DNA from: a virus
Direction: 5' to 3' (one strand)
IMG/VR virus record: IMGVR_UViG_3300035698_010610
Span: 26,315 to 90,314 of that record
DNA length: 64,000 nucleotides
A model generated the notes under the pieces. It ran no database searches and was not told the DNA's origin. It saw only the letters and a program-made list of their open reading frames with translations. Positions 3,087 through 41,586 of the stretch are shown here, one piece after another; position 1 is the stretch's first letter, and each line of letters starts with the position of its first letter. The position numbers and the translations under genes are program-made.

Positions 3087-4760
3087 CTACAACTCCCATT
3101 CCGGACCGCGCGGTGACGGACGGGGCTTGTCGCCACCTTGCTCCCCGAAAATCCGTTTCACCAACGGTGACACTTCCTTCCCCTGACCCTCCTGACTGAC
3201 AGCTATCGGCGAATCCCCCATCACGATAGGCCGGTCGATCCGTGGCGGCGGCGGCTTGACCGGGGCGACCATCGCCCAGTTGGCCAGCACCACGGCGTCG
3301 GCCCGGTCCGGAGAACGGCCGATCATCTCTTCGAGCGTTTGCGCCTTGCTGTTCTTCGTCTTCTTTTTCGGCGGCAACCACAGCTTGCCCCGTTCGTCGT
3401 ACGCCAGCGGCAGCACGGTCAACTCGCCACGCAATTCGTACGAGTCCGGTGGAATGGCAAAGCATCGCGACCACGTTTCGTTGCCTTGCTCGTCGACCAC
3501 TTTCGTCCACCGTTGCGGGTTCATTGTCTCCCGCATGCGGCCGTACATCTCGCACCGGCGGTTCAGGTAAACCTTCGGCTCGCGGGCACCTTCACCGAAC
3601 CCGATTGCCCGGACGCGAAGCCCCTGGCGTTTCATCAGGTCGCTGTACTGCTTGCCCCCGGCCCCTCGGTCGAAGCAGACGTGTTTCGCTGGGATCTTGT
3701 ACCGCCGCATCTTGTCGCGGGTGATGTCCGGAATGACGGACGTGTCCCGCGTTGACATCGCCTCCACGTCCACGATGCCGAATCGGTCAATAACCGCCCA
3801 GCAGGTCAAGTCCCGCCCACCCTCCGCAACGTCAACGCCCATGAAGTACGGTCCGCGATCCAACCCGATCACGGTTTGCCACAACTCCTCGGCCGCGTCG
3901 AGCCAAGCAGGAGGGAACATCAGATACTCCCGCCCTTCGTAGAACTGGCCGTGCAGACGCATCGCCTTTTTGATCGGGTCGAGCGTCAGCTCGTAGTGCT
4001 TGTATCGCTCCCATGTCATCACCCCAGGAATCTCGCGCGGGGGTGAACCTGTGCGGCCTTGCTCTGCCCACCAGCGGCCAATCTTGACGTTCGGGCTATC
4101 ATCACCGCTGATATGCAAAACCTTGCGGGAGAACTGGCCCACGTTGTACGGATGCGGGACATCGCCAGCTTTGCAGTGCCGGTAATACCATCCGCTTGCC
4201 GACAACGGGTTGCTGACCGCAAGCAGCCTCTGCGCCTGTGACACGGCGGCGTCATAGTATTCATCAGGGACCGCTGACGCTTCGTCGAAAATAAACAGAA
4301 CACGGGGAAGGGCCTCAGTCGCCGGAAGGTGATGCCCCTGGAAATTCTCCACGGTGTTCGTGACCAGCCCGACGACGTAGTGTTCTTCGTACGGCCGGTT
4401 TCGCTCCGGGTCCATGACCTGCATCTTGAGCGTTTGCAGATGGACGCCGAGGTCGTACTTGGCGGACCGGACAAGCTGGCCGATCTCTGCCCAGAGAATG
4501 CCCGCCAGTTGCGTGTTGCTGGACGACGATGTGACGACCCGGGCTGGGAAGCGAGTGCAAAAGAACCATAGCACGATCAGGGCCGCCGCCCGGGTCTTGC
4601 CCGTTTCATGTGCAGCGTGGCAATATGTCTCCACGTTGTCGTGAACGGACTCAATGATCTCGGCCTGTTTGTCGTAGACCCGCATCGCCGGCCAGAAGTG
4701 CGAAATGAACGCGAGCGGGTCATCTACCCACCCTGCCAGCAGTTGGGCCTCATCCGGCAT
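3087..4760 (-). CDS. terL: Terminase large subunit
   Basis: Q-motif (YDKQAEII), Walker A HAAHETGKT, Walker B LFIFDEAS, motif III SNP, RNase H-like GVDVAEGGRD and C-terminal GRSPDRADA. Confidence 0.92.
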   Translation of the reverse strand: MPDEAQLLAGWVDDPLAFISHFWPAMRVYDKQAEIIESVHDNVETYCHAAHETGKTRAAALIVLWFFCTRFPARVVTSSSSNTQLAGILWAEIGQLVRSAKYDLGVHLQTLKMQVMDPERNRPYEEHYVVGLVTNTVENFQGHHLPATEALPRVLFIFDEASAVPDEYYDAAVSQAQRLLAVSNPLSASGWYYRHCKAGDVPHPYNVGQFSRKVLHISGDDSPNVKIGRWWAEQGRTGSPPREIPGVMTWERYKHYELTLDPIKKAMRLHGQFYEGREYLMFPPAWLDAAEELWQTVIGLDRGPYFMGVDVAEGGRDLTCWAVIDRFGIVDVEAMSTRDTSVIPDITRDKMRRYKIPAKHVCFDRGAGGKQYSDLMKRQGLRVRAIGFGEGAREPKVYLNRRCEMYGRMRETMNPQRWTKVVDEQGNETWSRCFAIPPDSYELRGELTVLPLAYDERGKLWLPPKKKTKNSKAQTLEEMIGRSPDRADAVVLANWAMVAPVKPPPPRIDRPIVMGDSPIAVSQEGQGKEVSPLVKRIFGEQGGDKPRPSPRGPEWEL

Positions 4761-34053: not shown

Positions 34054-34986
34054 ATGACCGTATTGAAGATCACGCAAATCAAAGTCGATCAGAGCATTTT
34101 GGGACGGGCAACACTTGATGAAGGGTTGCTTGTTGAATACGAGGAATTGCGACGGACTGAGGAAGCCGTTTTCCCGCCCATCGTCGTATTCAAGGACACC
34201 GCCGAGAATTACTGGCTCGGCGACGGCAACCACCGCTTGCACGTTGAAAAGAAAATCGGCAACAACACGATAGACGTTGACCTCCGCGAAGGGTCGAAAT
34301 CAGACGCCCGATGGTTTGCTGCGGGCGCAAACCTCAACCACGGGCAGCGGCCGTCACGGGGCGACCGGTTGCACGCTATCCAGAATTTGCTGCTTGATCC
34401 TGCACACCAGAAGCGCCCGTTCGTTGCCATCGGCAAACAGTGCGGAGTATCCAAGCAGTATGTCGCCAAAGTTGCCAACGCACTCATTAAGGCTGGCAAA
34501 TTGAAGCCAGCAGCCGTCGGGAGAAAGACGGTTAAAATCACCACAGGCCAACATGCGGGAAAAACTTACGAGAAAGCATCGCCAGGGACCGGCGCGAAGG
34601 CCAAAAAAACAACAAGCCCGGCAACCGCAGCACCCAAGCCCAACGCAGCAAAGAAGAAGGACCAGCGGGGGCACGTTATTCCTGAATACCTCCTTGGCGT
34701 CTGGGCTGGCCGGTCCGTGGTGATGGACATGGTGACGGAACTGTCTGCGATCCCGGCCAAGGTGCAAAAGCTGACGGTGCATGCATCGGGTGCCGGGTCG
34801 ATGATCGAGGTCGGGACGGTGAAGGACTTGCTCGGCGAAGCCCGCACCCGCATCAAGAAGTCTGCCCCGTATGTAATTTGCTCCGACTGCCGCCCGAGCA
34901 ATCATGTGTGCAAGGGCTGCAAGCAATGCGACGGGAAGGGATGGTTGTCCGAAGACGAATATTTTGAATGGAAGCAGGAACACTAA
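34054..34986 (+). CDS. ParB-like nuclease domain, HTH and C-terminal Zn finger
   Basis: FPPIVVF...YWLGDGNHRL...GANLNHG; IGKQCGVSKQYVAKV; CSDC...CKQCDGKGW. Confidence 0.8.
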   Translation: MTVLKITQIKVDQSILGRATLDEGLLVEYEELRRTEEAVFPPIVVFKDTAENYWLGDGNHRLHVEKKIGNNTIDVDLREGSKSDARWFAAGANLNHGQRPSRGDRLHAIQNLLLDPAHQKRPFVAIGKQCGVSKQYVAKVANALIKAGKLKPAAVGRKTVKITTGQHAGKTYEKASPGTGAKAKKTTSPATAAPKPNAAKKKDQRGHVIPEYLLGVWAGRSVVMDMVTELSAIPAKVQKLTVHASGAGSMIEVGTVKDLLGEARTRIKKSAPYVICSDCRPSNHVCKGCKQCDGKGWLSEDEYFEWKQEH

Positions 34987-37900
34987 TGGCGACTCCGCAA
35001 GTTGAACTGCGGCCGTACCAGAGCGAAGCGGTCGTCAAATTATTCGAGGCGTTCCCGGACAACAACCGCATTCTTGTGTCCATGCCAACCGGTGTGGGCA
35101 AGACGGTTGTTGGGATGTACGCCGCGACGGTCTGGCCCGACGCTTGCGAGGCATTAGGGCTTCCGCCGAAAGTCTTGTGGTTGGCGCACCGCGAGGAGTT
35201 GGTTTTCCAGGCCGTCACCCAATTCCGCAACATGAGCGGCGAAGAGGCGGGCGTCGAAAAAGCGTACGACACGGTGACCAGCAGGCCGCTACTGGAACGC
35301 CCCCGCGTTGTTGCCGCGAGCATCCAGACGCTATTCTCCGAGGAGCGGCGGCTCCTGTTTGCCCCCGATGAATTCGGGTTGATCGTGATGGATGAATGCG
35401 TTGACGGCCTCGCGGCAGTAGAAACAGAACTTGGGACTATTCCACTCAGCGAAGCGGTGCGGCGTAAGGCCAAACGAGTGTTGACGCATGATGGAACATC
35501 TGCTAAGTTCGGTCGCATTGAGGCGTGGGCCAGTAAAGGCCGCCGGGCGGTGTTGCGGGTAGCGACATACGGTGGCACCATTCGCGTCACGGGGGAACAT
35601 CCAATATGGACACTGCGGGGATGGGTGGAAGCCCGGCACCTAAAGCCCGGCGACGCCGTTGTGCGTGCGGTTGCGGCGTATGGATACCGGCAGTCGACAC
35701 CAGGGGGCGACCGCGAAAGTGCGCCCCTGGTCATTCGACACCCAGAAGTCGCGAAGAATGGTCGGTTGAGTACGAAAAATTTAAGGCGTCACTGCCGCTT
35801 TGTGAGTGTGGCTGCGGCACTAGCGTTACGCCAAACGCGAGTACGCTATCACGGTTTATTAAATGGCGTGGCACGCGAAGCATTCCAAGGTATCGCAAAG
35901 GCCACGATAAGCGGCCGTCCGGGTGGGAGATCACGCTTACGCCTAACGAGCGGTCGGCGATTCTCGGGACGCTACTCGGCGACTTTAGCATCGGCTTACC
36001 GAACCCACGCAGTAAGAACCCCAGGCTATCCGGGAACCATTCAAGCAAGCAGACGGAGTGGGTTCGCCACAAGGCCGCTATCCTCCGGCGGCTGTCGCCA
36101 TCGGTTTCGTTTGCGGCCAATCCTGGGTACGGCGACCAGTTGTGTACGTTTCGGTCAAGTTGCCTCCCGTGTCTGTTGCCGATCTATGATCTCACCCGAC
36201 CGGACGGCGGCCCCAAAGTCATATCGCGGGCATGGCTTGACTCGCTGGGGCCACTGGGGCTCGCGTGGTGGATCTGCGATGACGGCAGTAGTTCCGCCGG
36301 ATGGCAGATTGCACTTCACACTGAGGGCTTTGACGACACCAGTATCAGGGCTGTGGCAATGTGGTTTCGAGCTAAATACGGCGAGGTACGGGTCGCCCAG
36401 TCACGCCGAGGCAATAAAACGGTTCACCTTCGCAAAGCGGTCGCCAGCAAGGTCGCGGCTGCCATCCGGCCGCACGTGCCGCCCTGCATGGCATATAAGC
36501 TGCGATACTGTCCTGTCGGTTGACCCTGACGGATCGCGTGAAGTCTACGACCTTGCTGTTGCCGACACGCACTGCTTTTTCGCCAATGGCATTCTCGTGC
36601 ATAATTGTCACCACGGCGTTGCCCCGGCGTGGCAAGAAGTCGCCGACTATTTCGACAAGGGGAGGCTGGTCGGGTTGACGGCTACCACGGATCGGGCCGA
36701 CGAAGTGTCGCTCGGCCAGATGTTCGGTTCAGTGCCGTTCCATTACTCCCTGCCCGATGCGATCAAAGACGGCTACCTGTCGAAGATCAAACAGGAGTAC
36801 ATCCGGGTCGAAAGCCTTGACTTTTCCGGCATCAAATTGGAAGACGGCGACCTGTCTGTGAAGGCGGTAGAGGATCGGATCAACCGCGAACAGACGATCC
36901 ATGAACTCTGTGCCCCGGTCGCCAAATTGGCGGGGGACCGGCAAACGATCATATTCACACCATCGGTCGGCTCGGCTGAGTCGGTTGCGGCGCTGATGTC
37001 GGCACGGTATAGCAAACGCGGTGCGGTCGCTGTCAGCGGTTCGACGAATCCAGACGACCGGAAAGCAGCGGTGGAAGCGTACCTCCGGGGCGACATTCAG
37101 TTTCTCGTGAATTGTGGTGTATTTCTGGAGGGCTTTGACGCCCCGAATACATCCTGCATCGTCATCGCTCGGCCGACTGCATCGCGGGCGCTGTACGCTC
37201 AGATGATCGGTCGCGGGTTGCGCGGCGGCTGGGCGTGCCCTATTGAAGGAAAAGAGGACTGCCTTGTCCTCGACTTGACTGGCAAGGCTGCGGACCACCG
37301 GTTGGTCGGCTCACCCGATTTGCTCGCTGGGAATTACGACAAAGCCGTAACGGATGAGATCAGACGGCGGATGGAGGAGAAGGGGGAGGACGGCGAACCG
37401 AACGACGTGGATGAGATCATTGCGGAGTGCGTCGCTTCGTCCGACGAGCTACGGAAAATGGCGTTCGTGAAAGTTGTTGCTGACGCCAAGCTGTCCCGGA
37501 AGACCATCGACCCGTTTTCGTTGCTGGATGTCGCCGAGGAGGCGTTGCCGGGCTGGTGGGACGCGAAACAACCACTGCCAGAACAGATCGACAAACTGGA
37601 GGCAGCGGGGATCAGACACGAGGGCGACTTCGACTACGCATCCGCCCAGAAGCTGTGCCACGAACTCGACGAACGGCGGGCAGCCGGGCTTTGCACCTAC
37701 AAACAGGCGAAGCAATTGGCGATCCGGGGTTTCGATCCGCACATGAGTTTCGACGCGGCGGGCGTTGTCCTTGACTACCTGGCAACCAGGCCGGGCGGGT
37801 TTGGAATGCAAGGCGAAGACTACAAGCGCAAGGGGTACGCGAAAAAACGCGGGCGGCTGGTGTCGTACGCCGAGGTGAAACACCTTCCCAGGTATTGCGT

Positions 37901-38078
37901 GCCGCCGGGCGTCAAGGTGGACGTGCGGGCGGGCGGCAGCGGCTGGAAGGAATTTCTTACCAAAAAGCGGACGGCATTTCACAAGCCGGACGAAACGCAG
38001 GGCGACCAGTGGTTGATCGAGCAAGGTGATTTTACACTGCGGGTCAGCAAGGATTACGTCACGGATCTGAAATCATAA
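34986..38078 (+). CDS. SF2 DEAD/DEAH-box helicase (intein-containing)
   Basis: LRPYQ, MPTGVGKT, DE|CHH after splicing, GLTAT, FLEGFDAP, YAQMIGRGLR. Confidence 0.93.
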   Translation: MATPQVELRPYQSEAVVKLFEAFPDNNRILVSMPTGVGKTVVGMYAATVWPDACEALGLPPKVLWLAHREELVFQAVTQFRNMSGEEAGVEKAYDTVTSRPLLERPRVVAASIQTLFSEERRLLFAPDEFGLIVMDECVDGLAAVETELGTIPLSEAVRRKAKRVLTHDGTSAKFGRIEAWASKGRRAVLRVATYGGTIRVTGEHPIWTLRGWVEARHLKPGDAVVRAVAAYGYRQSTPGGDRESAPLVIRHPEVAKNGRLSTKNLRRHCRFVSVAAALALRQTRVRYHGLLNGVAREAFQGIAKATISGRPGGRSRLRLTSGRRFSGRYSATLASAYRTHAVRTPGYPGTIQASRRSGFATRPLSSGGCRHRFRLRPILGTATSCVRFGQVASRVCCRSMISPDRTAAPKSYRGHGLTRWGHWGSRGGSAMTAVVPPDGRLHFTLRALTTPVSGLWQCGFELNTARYGSPSHAEAIKRFTFAKRSPARSRLPSGRTCRPAWHISCDTVLSVDPDGSREVYDLAVADTHCFFANGILVHNCHHGVAPAWQEVADYFDKGRLVGLTATTDRADEVSLGQMFGSVPFHYSLPDAIKDGYLSKIKQEYIRVESLDFSGIKLEDGDLSVKAVEDRINREQTIHELCAPVAKLAGDRQTIIFTPSVGSAESVAALMSARYSKRGAVAVSGSTNPDDRKAAVEAYLRGDIQFLVNCGVFLEGFDAPNTSCIVIARPTASRALYAQMIGRGLRGGWACPIEGKEDCLVLDLTGKAADHRLVGSPDLLAGNYDKAVTDEIRRRMEEKGEDGEPNDVDEIIAECVASSDELRKMAFVKVVADAKLSRKTIDPFSLLDVAEEALPGWWDAKQPLPEQIDKLEAAGIRHEGDFDYASAQKLCHELDERRAAGLCTYKQAKQLAIRGFDPHMSFDAAGVVLDYLATRPGGFGMQGEDYKRKGYAKKRGRLVSYAEVKHLPRYCVPPGVKVDVRAGGSGWKEFLTKKRTAFHKPDETQGDQWLIEQGDFTLRVSKDYVTDLKS
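35397..36605 (+). mobile_element. Intein (403 aa) inserted in helicase motif II
   Basis: Block A CVDG, block B RVTGEHPIW, blocks F/G VYDLAVADTHCFFANGILVHN followed by Cys+1. Confidence 0.92.
35606..36523 (+). CDS. LAGLIDADG homing endonuclease with N-terminal CxCGC repeats, encoded in an alternate frame inside the intein
   Basis: AILGTLLGDFSI, HSSKQTEWVRHK, LGPLGLAWWICDDGS, LHTEGF, IRPHVPPCMAYKL (LAGLIDADG_2/I-SceI-like); CACGC and CECGC. Confidence 0.88.
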   Translation: MDTAGMGGSPAPKARRRRCACGCGVWIPAVDTRGRPRKCAPGHSTPRSREEWSVEYEKFKASLPLCECGCGTSVTPNASTLSRFIKWRGTRSIPRYRKGHDKRPSGWEITLTPNERSAILGTLLGDFSIGLPNPRSKNPRLSGNHSSKQTEWVRHKAAILRRLSPSVSFAANPGYGDQLCTFRSSCLPCLLPIYDLTRPDGGPKVISRAWLDSLGPLGLAWWICDDGSSSAGWQIALHTEGFDDTSIRAVAMWFRAKYGEVRVAQSRRGNKTVHLRKAVASKVAAAIRPHVPPCMAYKLRYCPVG

Positions 38079-38096
38079 CCAAAGGCAGGCACTGCA

Positions 38097-38345
38097 ATGA
38101 CAAAGGCTACGCAACAGCGGGTTCCGGTAAGCGAAAAGGCCGTGTATCAGCGAATGACCCGGGCTTTGGCTCGACGCGGCCAGCAACTCTTCAGGCACCG
38201 GCGGGTGAAGGACGCCGAGCATACCGGCAGATTCTACACCGTCGACCTACGGCGGAACTGCATCGCCGATGTTGACGTTGATTTAGACAAACACGCCCGC
38301 GACCTTGGGGTGCTGAAACCCTGGGAGGAAATCCGGGTACGATGA
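38097..38345 (+). CDS. Small conserved hypothetical protein abutting array 1
   Basis: VSEKAVYQRMTRALA...GRFYTVD...DLDKHARDLGVLKPWE; stop codon is 2 nt before the first separator. Confidence 0.7.
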   Translation: MTKATQQRVPVSEKAVYQRMTRALARRGQQLFRHRRVKDAEHTGRFYTVDLRRNCIADVDVDLDKHARDLGVLKPWEEIRVR

Positions 38346-38347
38346 AC

Positions 38348-38905
38348 GGCTGTAACGGATTGGAGCGGGACGGACTGGACTGGAAAGGCAGGGAGCGGAA
38401 AGGGCAGGAAAGGAGCGGCTGTAACGGACCGGCGCGGCGTGAATTGGATTGGAAGGGGTCGGAAGGGACGGGACCGGCTGTAACGGAAGGGATCGGACAG
38501 GAACGGAAGAGACCGGAGCGGAGGGGCAAGGAAAGGATCGGACAGGCCGTAAAGGAGCGGAGTGGAAAGGATCGGATTGGATTGGAGTGGAATGGACCGG
38601 CTGGACCGGACTGGAGCGGACGGGATTAGAGCGGACCGGATCGGAATGGATCGGCTGTAACGGATCGGAGTGGAAAGGACCGGACCGGATGGGAGTGGCT
38701 CGGATTGGAGCGGCCGGACCGGCTTGAACCACCGTGCGTAACGGACTGGAACGGCTGGCCGTGGAGCGGAAAGGGCAGGAACGGCACGGCTGTAATGGAT
38801 CGGACGGGCATGGAAGGGAGCGGCTCGGAAGGGAATGGCCGTAGCGGCGTGGAAGGGAGTGGCTTGGAGCGGATTGGAATGGAGCGGAACGGAGCGGAGA
38901 GGCAG
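38348..38905 (+). repeat. Phased GGA-NN pentamer array 1 (putative guide-RNA array), 9 units
   Basis: About 92 pentamers GG(A>C/G)NN; GGC(T/C)GTA(A/G)(C/A/T) separators at 38348, 38417, 38476, 38545, 38653, 38788 and 38837. Confidence 0.92.
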
Positions 38906-38973
38906 GAGGGGCAATCGCACCCGTCAATGTTTGGCGGGGCACGGCAACTGCGTTTTACGAAAGGTTTGATACG

Positions 38974-39756
38974 ATGGCAAAGAAACCTGTGGCAAGTGGT
39001 AGCGGCAAGGGAGGCAACGGAAAAGGGCGGGTGGAAATCCAACCGCTCGACATGGACTACGTGGTCATCCGCATCGCGGGCGACTCACCACTGATGATGA
39101 ACAACAAAGCGGCCTGCGTCGAGGAGGTCAACGCCCGCTACTCATCGGTTGGCGGCGGGAAGGCGAAGGTGCCGAAGAAGGAAAAGACCATTGACTCAGT
39201 CTACCAAGGGGCTTTCTATACGCTCCCGAGCAGTCCGGGGCAACCGCCCGCGCCGAATGGACTGTACGGTATCCCCGCGAGCGGAATGAAGAAGTGCATC
39301 TGCTCCGCGATCCGTCCGGCCGGGTTCAGCGACAACACCACCATCGGCCTGATCGGCAAGAGTTTTCGCGTGCTGCCGGACGAAGGCGGGTTGATTCTCC
39401 TGCGTCACAACGGGTTCGCGATGGACACCCGCGCCGTGGCGGTCGGCACCACCGGCAAGATGCCGGAACTGCGCTATCGCCCAATTTTTCCCGAGTGGGA
39501 GTGCCACCTGCGGATTACGTTCAACCGCGCCGTGCTGTCGATTGAATCGTTGGGCAATCTCTTGCAGCATGCCGGGCAGTATATCGGCTGGGGAGAACTC
39601 CGCGCCGAGAAAAAGCAGGGCGAGTGCGGCGGGTTCGTCGTGACCGATGCCAAGCTGCCGAAGTGGGCGTCGGATGCGTACTGGAACGTCTCTGTCGACA
39701 AGATCGGTTTCCGTGTCAACGCGAAGAATCGCACGACGCGGCGGGCTAGTCGGTAA
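38974..39756 (+). CDS. RAMP/Cas7-like RNA-binding protein
   Basis: VVIRIAGDSPLMMN (beta1), YGIPASGMKKCI (cf. RAMP IPGSSLKG), RYRPIFPEWE, C-terminal G-rich loop GQYIGWGELRAEKKQGECGGF. Confidence 0.75.
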   Translation: MAKKPVASGSGKGGNGKGRVEIQPLDMDYVVIRIAGDSPLMMNNKAACVEEVNARYSSVGGGKAKVPKKEKTIDSVYQGAFYTLPSSPGQPPAPNGLYGIPASGMKKCICSAIRPAGFSDNTTIGLIGKSFRVLPDEGGLILLRHNGFAMDTRAVAVGTTGKMPELRYRPIFPEWECHLRITFNRAVLSIESLGNLLQHAGQYIGWGELRAEKKQGECGGFVVTDAKLPKWASDAYWNVSVDKIGFRVNAKNRTTRRASR

Positions 39757-39783
39757 TCACCCCACCACGGAGGACTCGCCACA

Positions 39784-40335
39784 ATGGCGAAGGCAAAGAA
39801 GAAAACGGAACTGGTCATCGGTTCGGGGTTTCACATTTCCCGCACTGAAGGCACGTCACTGATCGCGTTCATCAAGTCGCACTTCAAGGGCCGAGTGCCG
39901 AGGGGCAGTCCGGAAAAGCTGGTTGCGGCAGCCCGGCCTGCGACAAGCCCGATCCACTCGCTATTCGAGTGGAACGACAAGAAGGCGGCATTGCTGGAAC
40001 GCAAGCGGCGGGCAGAATACCTGCTGCGGGCCATTCAGCGCCGCGAGGTGGAGGTGACAGTTGGTTCCATACCGGGAAAAATCGTCACCGTCAGCCAGTC
40101 GATTGCCGTGAAACACAAGGGGCACCATGCTGTCATTTACGCGCAAGCTGGCGAACTGACGGCAACGGACATCAACTACGTTCTCGACCGCGCTCTGGTC
40201 GAGTTTCGGAGTTGGCTGAATCGTTACCGCAACTATGCCGAGTTTCGCAACCTGTTCGATCCGGTGATTGCCGAATTTGAAAAGGTGGAGGTGAAGATCG
40301 GTACATTCAGCGGGCGGCACAAAAAAACCGCCTAG
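39784..40335 (+). CDS. Conserved partner protein of the RAMP-like gene
   Basis: SPEKLVAAARPATSPIHSLFEWNDKKAA...RAEYLLRAI; C-terminal ALVEFRSWLNRYRNY; GGAGG RBS. Confidence 0.75.
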   Translation: MAKAKKKTELVIGSGFHISRTEGTSLIAFIKSHFKGRVPRGSPEKLVAAARPATSPIHSLFEWNDKKAALLERKRRAEYLLRAIQRREVEVTVGSIPGKIVTVSQSIAVKHKGHHAVIYAQAGELTATDINYVLDRALVEFRSWLNRYRNYAEFRNLFDPVIAEFEKVEVKIGTFSGRHKKTA

Positions 40336-40345
40336 TGCATTCCCC

Positions 40346-40380
40346 GCTGCCGCGCCGTGGCATTGCTGCGGCGTGGTGGC
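40346..40380 (+). other. G-U-rich RNA hairpin leading array 2
   Basis: GCTGCCGCGCCGTGGCA pairs with TGCTGCGGCGTGGTGGC using several G-U pairs, so the full stem forms only on the + strand RNA. Confidence 0.6.
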
Positions 40381-40682
40381 GGCTTTGTAATGGACCGGAG
40401 CGGAAGGGATCGGATAGGGGCGGCTCGGACCGGAATGGAGCGGAGCGGCTGTAACGGAGCGGCGTGGATCGGAGCGGCGTGGATTGGAGCGGATGGGACC
40501 GGACTGGAGCGGCTGTAAAGGAGCGGCGTGGATCGGACCGGAAGGGACAGGACTGGAGCGGCTGTAACGGAGCGGAGTGGATGGGACCGGAGAGGAGTGG
40601 ATTGGACCGGAGAGGACCGGCTGTAACGGAGCGGAATGGCCCGGAGTGGAGGGGCTCGGAGTGGAGTGGACCGGATTGGCTG
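40381..40682 (+). repeat. Phased GGA-NN pentamer array 2, 5 units
   Basis: About 50 pentamers; separators at 40381 (GGCTTTGTAAT), 40447, 40511, 40560 and 40619. Confidence 0.92.
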
Positions 40683-40697
40683 GACCGTCGCCTGGCA

Positions 40698-40754
40698 CCC
40701 GTCGTCGCTGCGGAAGGTTTGGAACACCACGACGCAGCGGCGGCGGGTTTTTTT
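40698..40754 (+). terminator. Intrinsic terminator closing array 2
   Basis: CCCGTCGTCGCTGCG...CGCAGCGGCGGCGGG followed by T7. Confidence 0.75.
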
Positions 40755-40782
40755 CAAACGTGTTTTGGGGATAATGAAGGGG

Positions 40783-41586
40783 ATGCCAAAGCACATCAGT
40801 GTCAGCCAAATATCGATGCATTCCAAGTGCGGCGAGCAATTCAGACGCCGCTACGAAGAGGGTGAAATTTGCCCGCCGGGCTTCGCGGCCTTGACCGGGA
40901 GCGGAGTTCATGCGGGCGCTGCTCACGCAATGGAGTGGAAGCGGGAGCATGGAGGGAACGTCAGCCCGGACGACGTTCGGGACGTTGCCGTGGCGGGTTT
41001 GGATGAACGCTTCGGTGCGGATGGAGCCATGCTGACTTCGGAGGAAACGGACCAGGGCGTGGCGGCATCGCTCGGAGCGGCGAGGGACCGCACCGCCGCG
41101 CTCGCTCACTTTTGGGGCTGCGTGGTTCAGCCGGAATACAACGCCCCGCAGTGGGTAGAGGAGCGATGGGAATTCGGATTGCCGAACGGGCAGACGTTGC
41201 TTGGCATCACGGACCTTGCAACGCCAGGGCTTGTGACGGATTGGAAGACCGGGCGGCGGAAATTGTCGCAGCGAGAGGCCGACACCTCATTGCAATTGAC
41301 AGCGTACGCTATCGCATACCGCCGCCGATACGGCGTGATGCCAAACGTCCGGCTCGACTGCCTCACCAGCAGGAAGCAAACCACGCGGACCGTGCTGAAC
41401 GCTTCACGGGGCATGACCCATGTTGAACAGTTCGCGGCGAGGTTGCGGGCGTTCACGAAGTCGGTAGCTTCCGGCTCGTTCGTTCCGTGCCTGCCGACGG
41501 AATGGTTCTGCTCAGAGAAATGGTGCGGGTATGCGAAGACGTGCCCCTATTACATTCCAGACCTTGAGGAAAAGGATGACGACTGA
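40783..41586 (+). CDS. PD-(D/E)XK (RecB/Cas4-like) exonuclease
   Basis: ISVSQISMHSKCG, GSGVH, LGITDL...VTDWKTG, LQLTAYA, C-terminal CSEKWCGYAKTC. Confidence 0.85.
   Translation: MPKHISVSQISMHSKCGEQFRRRYEEGEICPPGFAALTGSGVHAGAAHAMEWKREHGGNVSPDDVRDVAVAGLDERFGADGAMLTSEETDQGVAASLGAARDRTAALAHFWGCVVQPEYNAPQWVEERWEFGLPNGQTLLGITDLATPGLVTDWKTGRRKLSQREADTSLQLTAYAIAYRRRYGVMPNVRLDCLTSRKQTTRTVLNASRGMTHVEQFAARLRAFTKSVASGSFVPCLPTEWFCSEKWCGYAKTCPYYIPDLEEKDDD

What the first reader, a model, noticed from the sequence alone, without database searches (positions are those of the whole stretch)
38097..40754. Candidate phage RNA-guided system: RAMP/Cas7-like gene and partner flanked by phased GGA-NN pentamer arrays
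Seen: two non-coding arrays (38348-38905 and 40381-40682) bracket exactly two genes. Both are runs of pentamers with invariant GG, a mostly-A third base and two freely variable bases (e.g. GGATT GGAGC GGGAC GGACT GGACT GGAAA...). A 9-nt separator, GGCTGTAAC, cuts them into units of 8-12 pentamers (14 units, about 140 pentamers), and no two units are the same. Array 2 has a leader hairpin and a terminator. Knowledge: the 260-aa gene has RAMP hallmarks (I.G.SPL strand, IPASGMKK, C-terminal G-rich loop), and Cas7-type RAMPs polymerise along guide RNA with a fixed nucleotide period. Inference: each unit is a guide RNA, with GGA as the per-subunit handle and NN as the specificity code. No Cas1, Cas2, Cas3 or canonical CRISPR array is in the window. 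From memory, this resembles recently reported viral RAMP plus GGY/NN repeat (VIPR-type) systems, which needs checking; the GGA handle and this separator would then be a distinct variant.
Basis: partly seen in the sequence, partly recalled or inferred. Interest (0 to 1): 0.97.

Follow-up and report, generated by a model that had tools for sequence, protein, structure and literature searches.

The report
Phage VIPR system with GGA guides
A salt-lake phage carries a VIPR system, the CRISPR-related RNA-guided DNA silencer first described in 2026, with about 14 guide RNAs written in GGA-NN five-base units instead of the published GG-pyrimidine-NN, so it is real but belongs to a known kind.

Summary
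Two same-strand arrays of GG-phased pentamers (38348-38905, 40381-40682) bracket a 260-aa gene and a 183-aa gene, far beyond chance.

This is a VIPR system, a kind published in 2026 preprints.
- The 260-aa protein models as a single-domain Cas7-like RAMP.
- Its family profile hits the solved SUSP1 Vipr protein.
- All 8 of 8 related loci carry pentamer arrays on the gene's strand.
- The 183-aa partner is found in 6 of 6 close loci.
- The host record is a complete 90-kb tailed-phage genome without Cas1 or Cas2.

What differs from the studied systems is the third repeat base and the unit boundary. The third base is A, with some C. The close protein clade uses GGA and the distant relatives use GGY. 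Units are joined by a 9-nt GGCTGTAAC-type separator instead of a structured 3' tail.

Not shown here: expression, RNA binding and targets. Six public pattern scans gave no target.

This scan has met GGA-type VIPRs before on other DNA: 95 notes in at least 76 genomes.

Verdict: a variant member of a known kind, of moderate interest.

The parts
38097..38345 (+). 82-aa ORF whose stop lies 2 nt before the first separator. Whether it belongs to the system is doubtful.
   Evidence: ORF listed. No Pfam or PHROG family. No tblastn match in the 8 related loci. It leaves no room for a promoter of its own in front of array 1.
38348..38905 (+). vrRNA array 1: 8 clean units of 8-12 GGA-NN pentamers, plus an irregular stretch at 38712-38796. 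Each unit is preceded by a GGCTGTAAC-type separator.
38974..39756 (+). vipr: a 260-aa single-RRM RAMP (Cas7-like) with a thumb hairpin (about residues 152-168) and a glycine-rich loop (about 201-221).
   Evidence: Model. Foldseek and VIA-align matches to CRISPR RAMPs. Profile match to SUSP1 Vipr 36pp_D at E 3.1e-5. phrog_4652 at 1.4e-11. 59 homologues. 3,055 representatives at E <= 0.001.
39784..40335 (+). 183-aa accessory gene (vap-like partner) of unknown fold.
   Evidence: tblastn matches downstream of vipr in 6 of 6 close loci, E 5e-22 to 6e-5. Alignment A2. phrog_15946 at 2e-11. No Pfam family.
40344..40382 (+). 18-bp hairpin between the partner gene and array 2. Its 3' arm runs into the first separator. 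It may be an attenuator/terminator or an RNA end-protecting or processing element.
   Evidence: One search lists it as terminator-like.: -37.5 kcal/mol, z -4.66, 0 of 200 shuffles as stable.
40381..40682 (+). vrRNA array 2: 5 units of 8-11 GGA-NN pentamers.
40697..40754 (+). Hairpin followed by a run of seven T: the likely intrinsic terminator of the locus.
   Evidence: hairpin at 40697-40748, z -2.99, 2 of 200 shuffles as stable. T run at 40748-40754 read. The consensus scan does not list it.

Best explanation
This is a VIPR (Viral Interference Programmable Repeat) system of a tailed phage from salt lakes.

Proposed working, by homology with the studied SUSP1 system:
1. The locus is transcribed on the + strand, probably with the upstream helicase and 82-aa genes, and ends at the hairpin plus T run after array 2.
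2. The two arrays are cut at or near the GGCTGTAAC-type separators into about 14 vrRNAs of 8-12 pentamers.
3. One Vipr protomer binds each pentamer. The filament buries the GGA handle and presents the two variable bases.
4. The presented dinucleotides pair with double-stranded DNA in which every third base is skipped (NNxNNx...). This blocks transcription of a competing phage, satellite or prophage.
5. The 183-aa partner is this clade's accessory (vap-like) protein.

Shown here: the arrays, the RAMP fold, sequence homology to a solved Vipr, conservation of the array-vipr-partner module, and the phage setting.

Inferred: transcription, processing, one protomer per pentamer, the skip rule, DNA as the target, and silencing of rivals.
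For: Protein:
- Profile match to 'SUSP1 Vipr protein' at E 3.1e-5; single sequence E 0.0083.
- Model pLDDT 81.3, pTM 0.77.
- All 50 Foldseek rows listed are CRISPR RAMP entries, 10 of them at E <= 0.001.
- VIA-align gives Z 8.6-10.0 over residues 24-227. 47 of the 50 rows are named CRISPR effectors and 3 have uninformative titles.

Arrays:
- Period-5 signal far above shuffles.
- 8 of 8 related loci have same-strand pentamer arrays beside the gene.
- Unit sizes of 8-12 pentamers compare with the published 9-16 repeats.

Module: the partner is conserved in 6 of 6 close loci.

Setting:
- The record is a virus genome with direct terminal repeats, rated 100% complete.
- It has a major head protein, a large terminase and a tape measure.
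- Cas1 and Cas2 are absent and there is no CRISPR-like repeat.

Code: the variable dinucleotides resemble the complement of codon positions 1-2 (+15.6 nats over background; the other five registers are negative; 10 of 13 units). In 8 of 8 relatives a positions-1-2 register, sense or antisense, fits best. This agrees with the published skipping of the wobble base.
Against: - No target was found. There is no self-match above shuffled guides at skips 0-3 in the 90-kb genome.
- Four guides gave 0 exact matches in 6 public scans.
- The handle is GGA, with 12% GGC. In SUSP1 and P. fulva the third-base pocket excludes purines, and GGY>GGA was one of the substitutions tested there. The RNA contacts must therefore differ.
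- There is no structured 3' tail like the type II pseudoknot, only a 9-nt separator.
- The codon-register signal is compositional. A preference for a pyrimidine just before GG could produce it.
Confidence: 0.85

Rival explanations
1. It is the same family but with a different code or target. The GGA clade may read its target with another spacing, or act mainly on RNA, since most guides look antisense to coding strands.
For: - No target was found under the 1-nt skip rule.
- Handle and boundary differ from the studied systems.
- The dinucleotide make-up favours the complement of the coding strand in the window and in 6 of 8 relatives.
- The structural paper lists SUSP1 complexes formed with an ssRNA target (legends seen).
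Against: - The core G-loop and thumb positions are invariant across the GGA and GGY clades: P101, V155, R167, R169, W175, G201, G205, E208, R210, G219.
- The best-fitting registers are positions 1-2, as the published wobble-skipping code predicts.
- A failed target search in public collections is expected for an uncultured salt-lake phage.
Confidence: 0.1
2. It is a decaying or idle locus. The arrays are relics that are no longer processed or used.
For: - 23 of 133 pentamers depart from GGA.
- There is an irregular stretch at 38712-38796 and there are truncated separators.
- No RNA run holds the locus, which says nothing either way.
Against: - Both genes are intact. Vipr keeps all 37 columns that are invariant in 25 homologues.
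- Fragments from four other salt-lake runs of 2017-2018 showed no differing letters where they covered the locus.
- The paper notes that internal degeneracy of vrRNAs is frequent.
Confidence: 0.03
3. The pentamer tracts are protein-coding or generic tandem repeats. Long ORFs cross them on both strands. The link to the RAMP gene would then be coincidental.
For: - ORFs of 95-382 aa overlap the arrays.
- A database protein, P0059, starts inside such an array.
Against: - The period is 5, not 3.
- The fixed positions are GGA, the other two vary freely, and the pattern is kept across loci that share no NN content.
- 8 of 8 homologue loci have the arrays next to the gene on its strand.
- GGANN units can form a stop only with NN = TA, so open frames are expected.
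Confidence: 0.01
4. It is a minimal CRISPR-Cas effector module (type III/IV-like Cas7) with an aberrant array.
For: The fold matches Csm3, Cmr, Csf2 and Cas7-11.
Against: - There are no CRISPR repeats and no Cas1 or Cas2.
- Sequence homology is to Vipr, not to any Cas family. Pfam gives no family and the PDB profile search gives only Vipr.
Confidence: 0.01

Closest known systems
Type II VIPR of Escherichia phage SUSP1 and the P. fulva prophage (bioRxiv 10.64898/2026.04.26.720920 and 10.64898/2026.04.26.720927; PDB 36pp)
   Same: - A small stand-alone RAMP plus one accessory gene.
- Guide arrays upstream and downstream on the same strand.
- 5-nt repeats with a fixed GG and two variable bases.
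- A phage setting and no cas genes.
- Sequence homology in the thumb, beta-strand and G-loop part.
   Different: - The third base is A (83%) or C (12%), never T, whereas the SUSP1 pocket excludes purines.
- There is no ~30-nt structured tail or pseudoknot, only a 9-nt separator.
- Units are about 49-69 nt rather than about 100 nt.
- The protein is 260 aa against 202 aa. It has a clade-specific RAEKKQGECGGF segment and a C-terminal extension.
- The partner is of a different, unassigned family.
VIPR 'staggered' vrRNA arrays (same paper, text and legend of fig. S18). Likely examples seen here: Gordonia phages ODay and UmaThurman, Cyanophage Cy-LDV1.
   Same: - Units abut one another without a long tail.
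- A junction that breaks the 5-nt phase by one base. A 4-nt GGCA occurs in those phages. The truncated GGCT junctions at 38599 and 40678 here are the same kind.
   Different: - Most junctions here carry five more bases (GTAAC), giving a conserved 9-mer GG[C/A][T/C]GTA[A/G]N. This was seen at 75 boundaries in the window and 5 loci.
- The handle is GGA, not GGY.
- Protein identity to those phages is only 22-27%.
- Which published type this clade falls in could not be read. The figures are images and the supplements are closed.
Non-canonical VIPR repeat units reported with a genomic language model (bioRxiv 10.64898/2026.10.21.760802)
   Same: 5-nt arrays beside Vipr-like folds whose fixed trinucleotide is not GGY.
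   Different: The passages I read name GAC, CAC, WGT and TGH. GGA, GGR, GGN and GGH do not occur in that text. Its fig. S10 is an image and may list more.
Class 1 CRISPR backbone subunits (Cas7 family: Csm3, Cmr4, type VII Cas7, Cas7-11)
   Same: RRM core, thumb and glycine-rich loop. Z 9-10 with about 145-165 aligned residues. In those systems protomers polymerise along a guide with a fixed period (established knowledge).
   Different: - The period is 5 nt with 2 paired bases, instead of 6 nt with 5 paired.
- There are no repeat-spacer array, no adaptation genes and no large or small subunits.
- Sequence identity is 9-15%.

Membership tests
VIPR system | Vipr protein: a minimal single-RRM RAMP with thumb and G-loop, homologous to described Viprs. 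| tested here: met
   Profile match to SUSP1 Vipr 36pp_D at E 3.1e-5. Model and RAMP matches with Z up to 10.0.
VIPR system | Tandem 5-nt repeats with fixed GG(Y) and variable NN, next to vipr on its strand. | tested here: met
   The period-5 arrays are confirmed. The fixed trinucleotide is GGA/GGC rather than GGY. The paper allows 'a related consensus' and names NNNGG, YNNNG and NNNNG.
VIPR system | Minimal locus: vipr plus one accessory (vap) gene, with no cas genes and no CRISPR array. | tested here: met
   The two-gene unit is conserved in 6 of 6 close loci. Cas1 and Cas2 are absent from the 90-kb genome. TRF finds no CRISPR-like array in the window. Other cas families were not searched one by one.
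VIPR system | Mostly viral or proviral setting. | tested here: met
   Virus record with terminal repeats, rated 100% complete. Head, terminase and tape-measure genes. Exonuclease and RecT lie next door.
VIPR system | vrRNAs are expressed, processed and bound by Vipr. | not testable with these tools
   Needs small-RNA sequencing and pull-down.
VIPR system | Targets match the NN code with one skipped base (NNx), mostly in rival mobile elements. | tested here: inconclusive
   No target was found. The NN make-up fits codon positions 1-2, which is only compositional support.
VIPR type II (SUSP1-like) | Each repeat tract is followed by an invariable structured 3' tail (a pseudoknot in the SUSP1 clade). 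| tested here: not met
   Units are separated by 9 nt, or by 4 nt at two junctions. Rfam finds no structured family.
VIPR type II (SUSP1-like) | Pyrimidine at repeat position 3. | tested here: not met
   110 of 133 pentamers have A and none has T.
VIPR with staggered arrays | Adjacent vrRNAs overlap by 1 nt, the end of one marking the start of the next (legend of fig. S18). | tested here: inconclusive
   Two GGCT-G junctions fit this. The other 11 junctions carry the longer separator. The figure itself could not be seen.
CRISPR-Cas class 1 | Repeat-spacer array and cas operon (adaptation genes or multi-subunit effector). | tested here: not met
   Pfam assigns no Cas family to the 260-aa protein.

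The most novel reading that the evidence does not exclude
The GGA clade is a naturally orthogonal branch of VIPR with three distinguishing features.
1. Its Vipr has a third-base pocket that accepts A (and, in this phage, C) where the studied proteins exclude purines. The clade-specific RAEKKQGECGGF loop may form that pocket.
2. Its guides mature at a short GTAAC-type separator, by a route different from the tail-capped type II RNAs.
3. Its guides are biased to pair with the coding strand at codon positions 1-2.

If so, GGA- and GGY-type proteins could be used side by side without cross-talk. The separator would be a new minimal processing signal.
Probability: 0.3. Interest if true: 0.6.

Novelty: new variant of a known kind. 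Interest (0 to 1): 0.35.

Why it matters
VIPR is a very recent addition to RNA-guided systems, and only GGY-type, tail-capped guides have been studied at the bench.

A well-preserved natural locus adds three things:
- It shows that the handle contact is evolvable. The locus has 14 guides, a GGA (sometimes GGC) handle and a 9-nt boundary. The handle type follows the protein clade: 7 GGA loci against 5 GGY loci.
- It points to a concrete loop to test for that contact.
- It offers a candidate second, non-cross-reacting guide format for tool building.

It does not change the picture of what VIPR is. The authors' own survey of 667 systems may already contain this clade.

Tried and rejected
Target search
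- The 13 clean guides were scored against the phage's own 90-kb genome at 0-3 skipped bases. None beat shuffled guides; the mean excess was -0.1 to +0.25 bases.
- Four guides were written as NNx patterns and scanned. A1 and B2 went through viral contigs, A9 and A3 through metagenome contigs, and A3 and A9 through viral contigs. All 6 scans gave 0 matches. Only exact matches are found there, and 9 of the 13 guides were not scanned.
- 54 guides from 5 related loci were scored against this genome. 0 of 54 exceeded the shuffles by 2 or more bases.
- I looked for sibling phages through the major head protein and found none in viral contigs.
No host was inferred, and there are no tRNA genes.

Expression
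- No RNA holder is listed among the 15 runs, all salt-lake DNA runs.
- The contigs of X2, X3, X4 and X7 that were laid cover fragments only and show no differing letters.

Partner protein
- It has no Pfam family.
- phmmer and a profile search of PDB gave nothing below E 0.5.
- The word-based homologue search found only itself and one protein at 77% identity.
- The model is mediocre (pLDDT 67.6).
- VIA-align wide matched only the C-terminal helical hairpin (Z <= 8.0). Foldseek gave nothing at E <= 0.001. The N-terminal half was therefore not tested on its own.
- The joint fold of Vipr with the partner gave no verdict.

Other checks
- Rfam gave no match in 37500-41500.
- The promoter scan found one weak site inside the partner gene, no more than shuffles give.
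- The actinohivin matches rest on a short low-complexity stretch (residues 55-89) and were set aside.
Reading NNx as codons, I found no unit with G-K-[ST]. The nearest, A3, reads ..P-A-G-K/N-K/N-S.. (one search list). I do not support that note.
- P0044 is KKM16646.1 / A0A0F9HMZ7, which is not one of the paper's five seed accessions.

Limits on the literature
- The supplementary files and figures of the papers were not seen. They may already show this clade, its type and a GGA logo.
Full report
**What is in the sequence**

On the + strand the window reads, in order:
- a 1036-aa helicase-like ORF (34968-38078);
- an 82-aa ORF (38097-38345);
- a 558-nt non-coding tract (38348-38905);
- a 260-aa gene (38974-39756);
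- a 183-aa gene (39784-40335);
- a strong hairpin (40344-40382);
- a 302-nt non-coding tract (40381-40682);
- a hairpin followed by seven T (40697-40754);
- a PD-(D/E)XK exonuclease gene and a RecT gene.

Both tracts are chains of five-base units that begin with GG.
- Identity at lag 5 is 0.55 and 0.57, against 0.16-0.24 at lags 2-3.
- GG-to-GG at distance 5 occurs 85 and 50 times. In 500 dinucleotide-preserving shuffles the figures are 23.8 +/- 4.2 and 12.8 +/- 2.9.
- Nothing else in the 64-kb window, or in the 90-kb genome, comes close.
- In 13 cleanly phased units there are 133 pentamers: 110 GGA, 16 GGC, 4 GGG and 3 with a broken GG. Positions 4 and 5 use all bases.

Units hold 8-12 pentamers and all differ. 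They are set apart by GGCTGTAAC (7 exact copies) or near variants. 11 boundaries fit GGNNGTANN. Two boundaries are a bare GGCT (38599, 40678), and one stretch (38712-38796) is irregular.

**The protein**
- Pfam has no family for the 260-aa protein. PHROGs gives an unnamed family, phrog_4652, at 1.4e-11.
- Against all PDB sequences, the single sequence weakly hits 'SUSP1 Vipr protein' (36pp_D, E 0.0083). A profile of 25 homologues hits it at E 3.1e-5 over the thumb-to-G-loop part, and nothing else is below E 1.
- The AlphaFold2 model has pLDDT 81.3 and pTM 0.77. By Foldseek it matches only CRISPR RAMP entries in the 50 rows listed.
- By VIA-align it reaches Z 8.6-10.0 to Csm3, type III-D and type VII Cas7 and Cas7-11 over residues 24-227.
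- It is thus a single-domain Cas7-like RAMP that is related by sequence to a solved Vipr.
- The family is large: 3,055 representatives at E <= 0.001, 948 at <= 1e-10 and 18 at <= 1e-30.

**Relatives**
- Scans with the family alignment gave 7 viral loci and 1 locus in a Spongiibacteraceae MAG. All 8 carry GG-phased pentamer arrays next to the gene on its strand.
- The six close loci (41-50% identity) use GGA (A at position 3 in 76-98% of units). Five of them (L001-L004 and L008, not L005) have the same kind of 9-nt separator, GG[C/A][T/C]GTA[A/G]N. Separator-to-separator spacings are mostly of the form 5n+4, and 49-69 nt is the commonest range.
- The two distant loci use GGC or GGY.
- Named phages with 22-27% identical proteins (Gordonia phages ODay and UmaThurman, Cyanophage Cy-LDV1) have GGC/GGT arrays whose units are joined by a 4-nt GGCA.
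- So the handle type follows the protein clade: 7 GGA loci, counting the window, against 5 GGY loci.
- The 183-aa partner has tblastn matches just downstream of the vipr-array pair in 6 of 6 close loci and in neither distant one. In those loci the order is array-vipr-array-partner; here it is array-vipr-partner-array.

**What is known**

The library holds four preprints of 2026.
- For the founding paper (10.64898/2026.04.26.720920) I read the whole Results, methods sections 18 and 20, and passages including the supplementary legends. It defines VIPR as follows: a small RAMP (Vipr) and an accessory gene (vap); vrRNAs of 9-16 YNNGG repeats followed by a structured tail; recognition of double-stranded DNA by the NN bases with one skipped base, usually the codon wobble; and silencing of rival phages and satellites. 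It names seven types, 'related' repeat consensuses (NNNGG, YNNNG, NNNNG), staggered arrays whose vrRNAs overlap by 1 nt, and hammerhead-separated arrays.
- For the structural paper (10.64898/2026.04.26.720927) I read the abstract, sections 5 and 6, and passages. It shows one protomer per repeat, and a third-base pocket that sterically excludes purines in both SUSP1 and P. fulva.
- For the third paper (10.64898/2026.10.15.759431) I read the abstract and section 17. It gives the guide-scanning method that I copied.
- For the fourth paper (10.64898/2026.10.21.760802) I read passages only. It reports 21 clusters with non-GGY units and names GAC, CAC, WGT and TGH.
- 'GGA' occurs once in these four texts, as a GGY>GGA substitution tested in SUSP1.
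- A full-text search for 'vrRNA' found 6 papers, of which 4 were listed.
- Figures and supplements were not available. I cannot tell whether this clade's logo or type is already shown there.

**Membership**

The locus meets the defining features that can be tested by computation:
- a Vipr-homologous minimal RAMP;
- same-strand 5-nt arrays with a fixed GG and variable NN;
- a two-gene unit;
- no Cas1 or Cas2 and no CRISPR-like repeat;
- a viral setting. The record has terminal repeats and is rated 100% complete, with head, terminase and tape-measure genes.

It does not meet two type II features, a pyrimidine at position 3 and a structured 3' tail.

Its bare GGCT-G junctions look like the 1-nt-overlap 'staggered' junction, and like the GGCA junctions of the Gordonia phages. 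Most junctions, however, carry the extra GTAAC. This comparison rests on a figure legend and on my own reading of the loci.

**Mechanism**

By homology, I take each unit to be a guide. On it, 8-12 Vipr protomers bury the GGA and present NN to DNA that is read as NNx.

Two pieces of indirect support:
- The core columns are invariant across the GGA and GGY clades: P101, V155, R167, R169, W175, G201, G205, E208, R210 and G219.
- The NN make-up fits the complement of codon positions 1-2 of this phage's genes. It scores +15.6 nats over background, while the other five registers are negative, and 10 of 13 units fit this way. A positions-1-2 register is best in 8 of 8 relatives scored with their own genes, antisense in 6 and sense in 2.

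That second signal is compositional. It could also come from a liking for a pyrimidine before GG.

The segment after the conserved E-x-R differs between clades. It reads RAEKKQGECGGF in the GGA clade and is shorter and different in the GGY clades. I suggest, as inference only, that it shapes the third-base pocket.

Array 1 starts 2 nt after the stop of the 82-aa ORF, so it is probably co-transcribed with upstream genes. The hairpin before array 2 may attenuate transcription or protect an RNA end.

**What failed**
- No target was found in the phage's own genome, in four guides scanned through public viral and metagenome collections, or with relatives' guides against this phage.
- No RNA data exist for the locus. 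The same phage occurs, without visible change, in several salt-lake runs of 2017-2019.
- The partner's fold remains unassigned.
- The joint fold gave no verdict.

**Verdict**

The kind is known, having been published in 2026. This scan's own notes already hold many GGA-type VIPRs on other DNA: 95 notes in at least 76 genomes. Those are unchecked notes and I do not count them as support.

The locus is a tidy, complete example of a variant with a GGA/GGC handle, a 9-nt separator and its own accessory family. Interest is moderate. Its value lies in handle specificity and guide maturation, not in a new principle.

Noticed in passing
window 34968-38078 (nested ORF 35606-36523): The 1036-aa helicase-like ORF upstream has a long Arg/Ser/Gly-rich middle part. 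A 305-aa ORF lies in another frame inside it.
   Followed up: no
window 38234-38920 (-), 39961-41109 (-); protein P0059: Long ORFs run across the arrays on both strands because GGANN units almost never form stop codons. The database protein P0059 begins with about 70 residues translated from such an array. Gene callers will mis-annotate these tracts.
   Followed up: partly
L010 (Gordonia phage UmaThurman NC_031249.1) 3088-3452; L009 3100-3306; L011 3121-3317 and 3899-4081: In named phage records the GGY pentamer arrays sit right after a 'hypothetical protein' that is a Vipr homologue. In UmaThurman the annotated CDS gp40 (locus 3125-3448) lies on top of the array.
   Followed up: partly
window 38917 and 40695 (also 20141 and 61895): The same 9-mer, GCACCCGTC, follows the last unit of both arrays and forms the 5' arm of a hairpin there. 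It occurs four times in the window, all on the + strand.
   Followed up: partly
window 39655-39756 (Vipr residues 228-260): This protein and its five closest aligned homologues (P0002, P0003, P0005, P0007, P0009) have a C-terminal extension of about 35 residues with a conserved P-x-W-[AT]-[ST]-D..W motif. The other 19 aligned homologues lack it. The model gives it a small beta-hairpin at low confidence.
   Followed up: no
runs X2 and X3 laid on window 38850-38906 and 40471-40503: Contigs from other salt-lake samples match only a few pentamers and then continue with different GGANN units (loose ends). Other GGA-type arrays therefore live in the same habitat.
   Followed up: no
window 40456-40559: Units B2 and B3 start with the same three pentamers, and two of the three recur inside B2. 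This suggests duplication and divergence of guides, or related targets.
   Followed up: no
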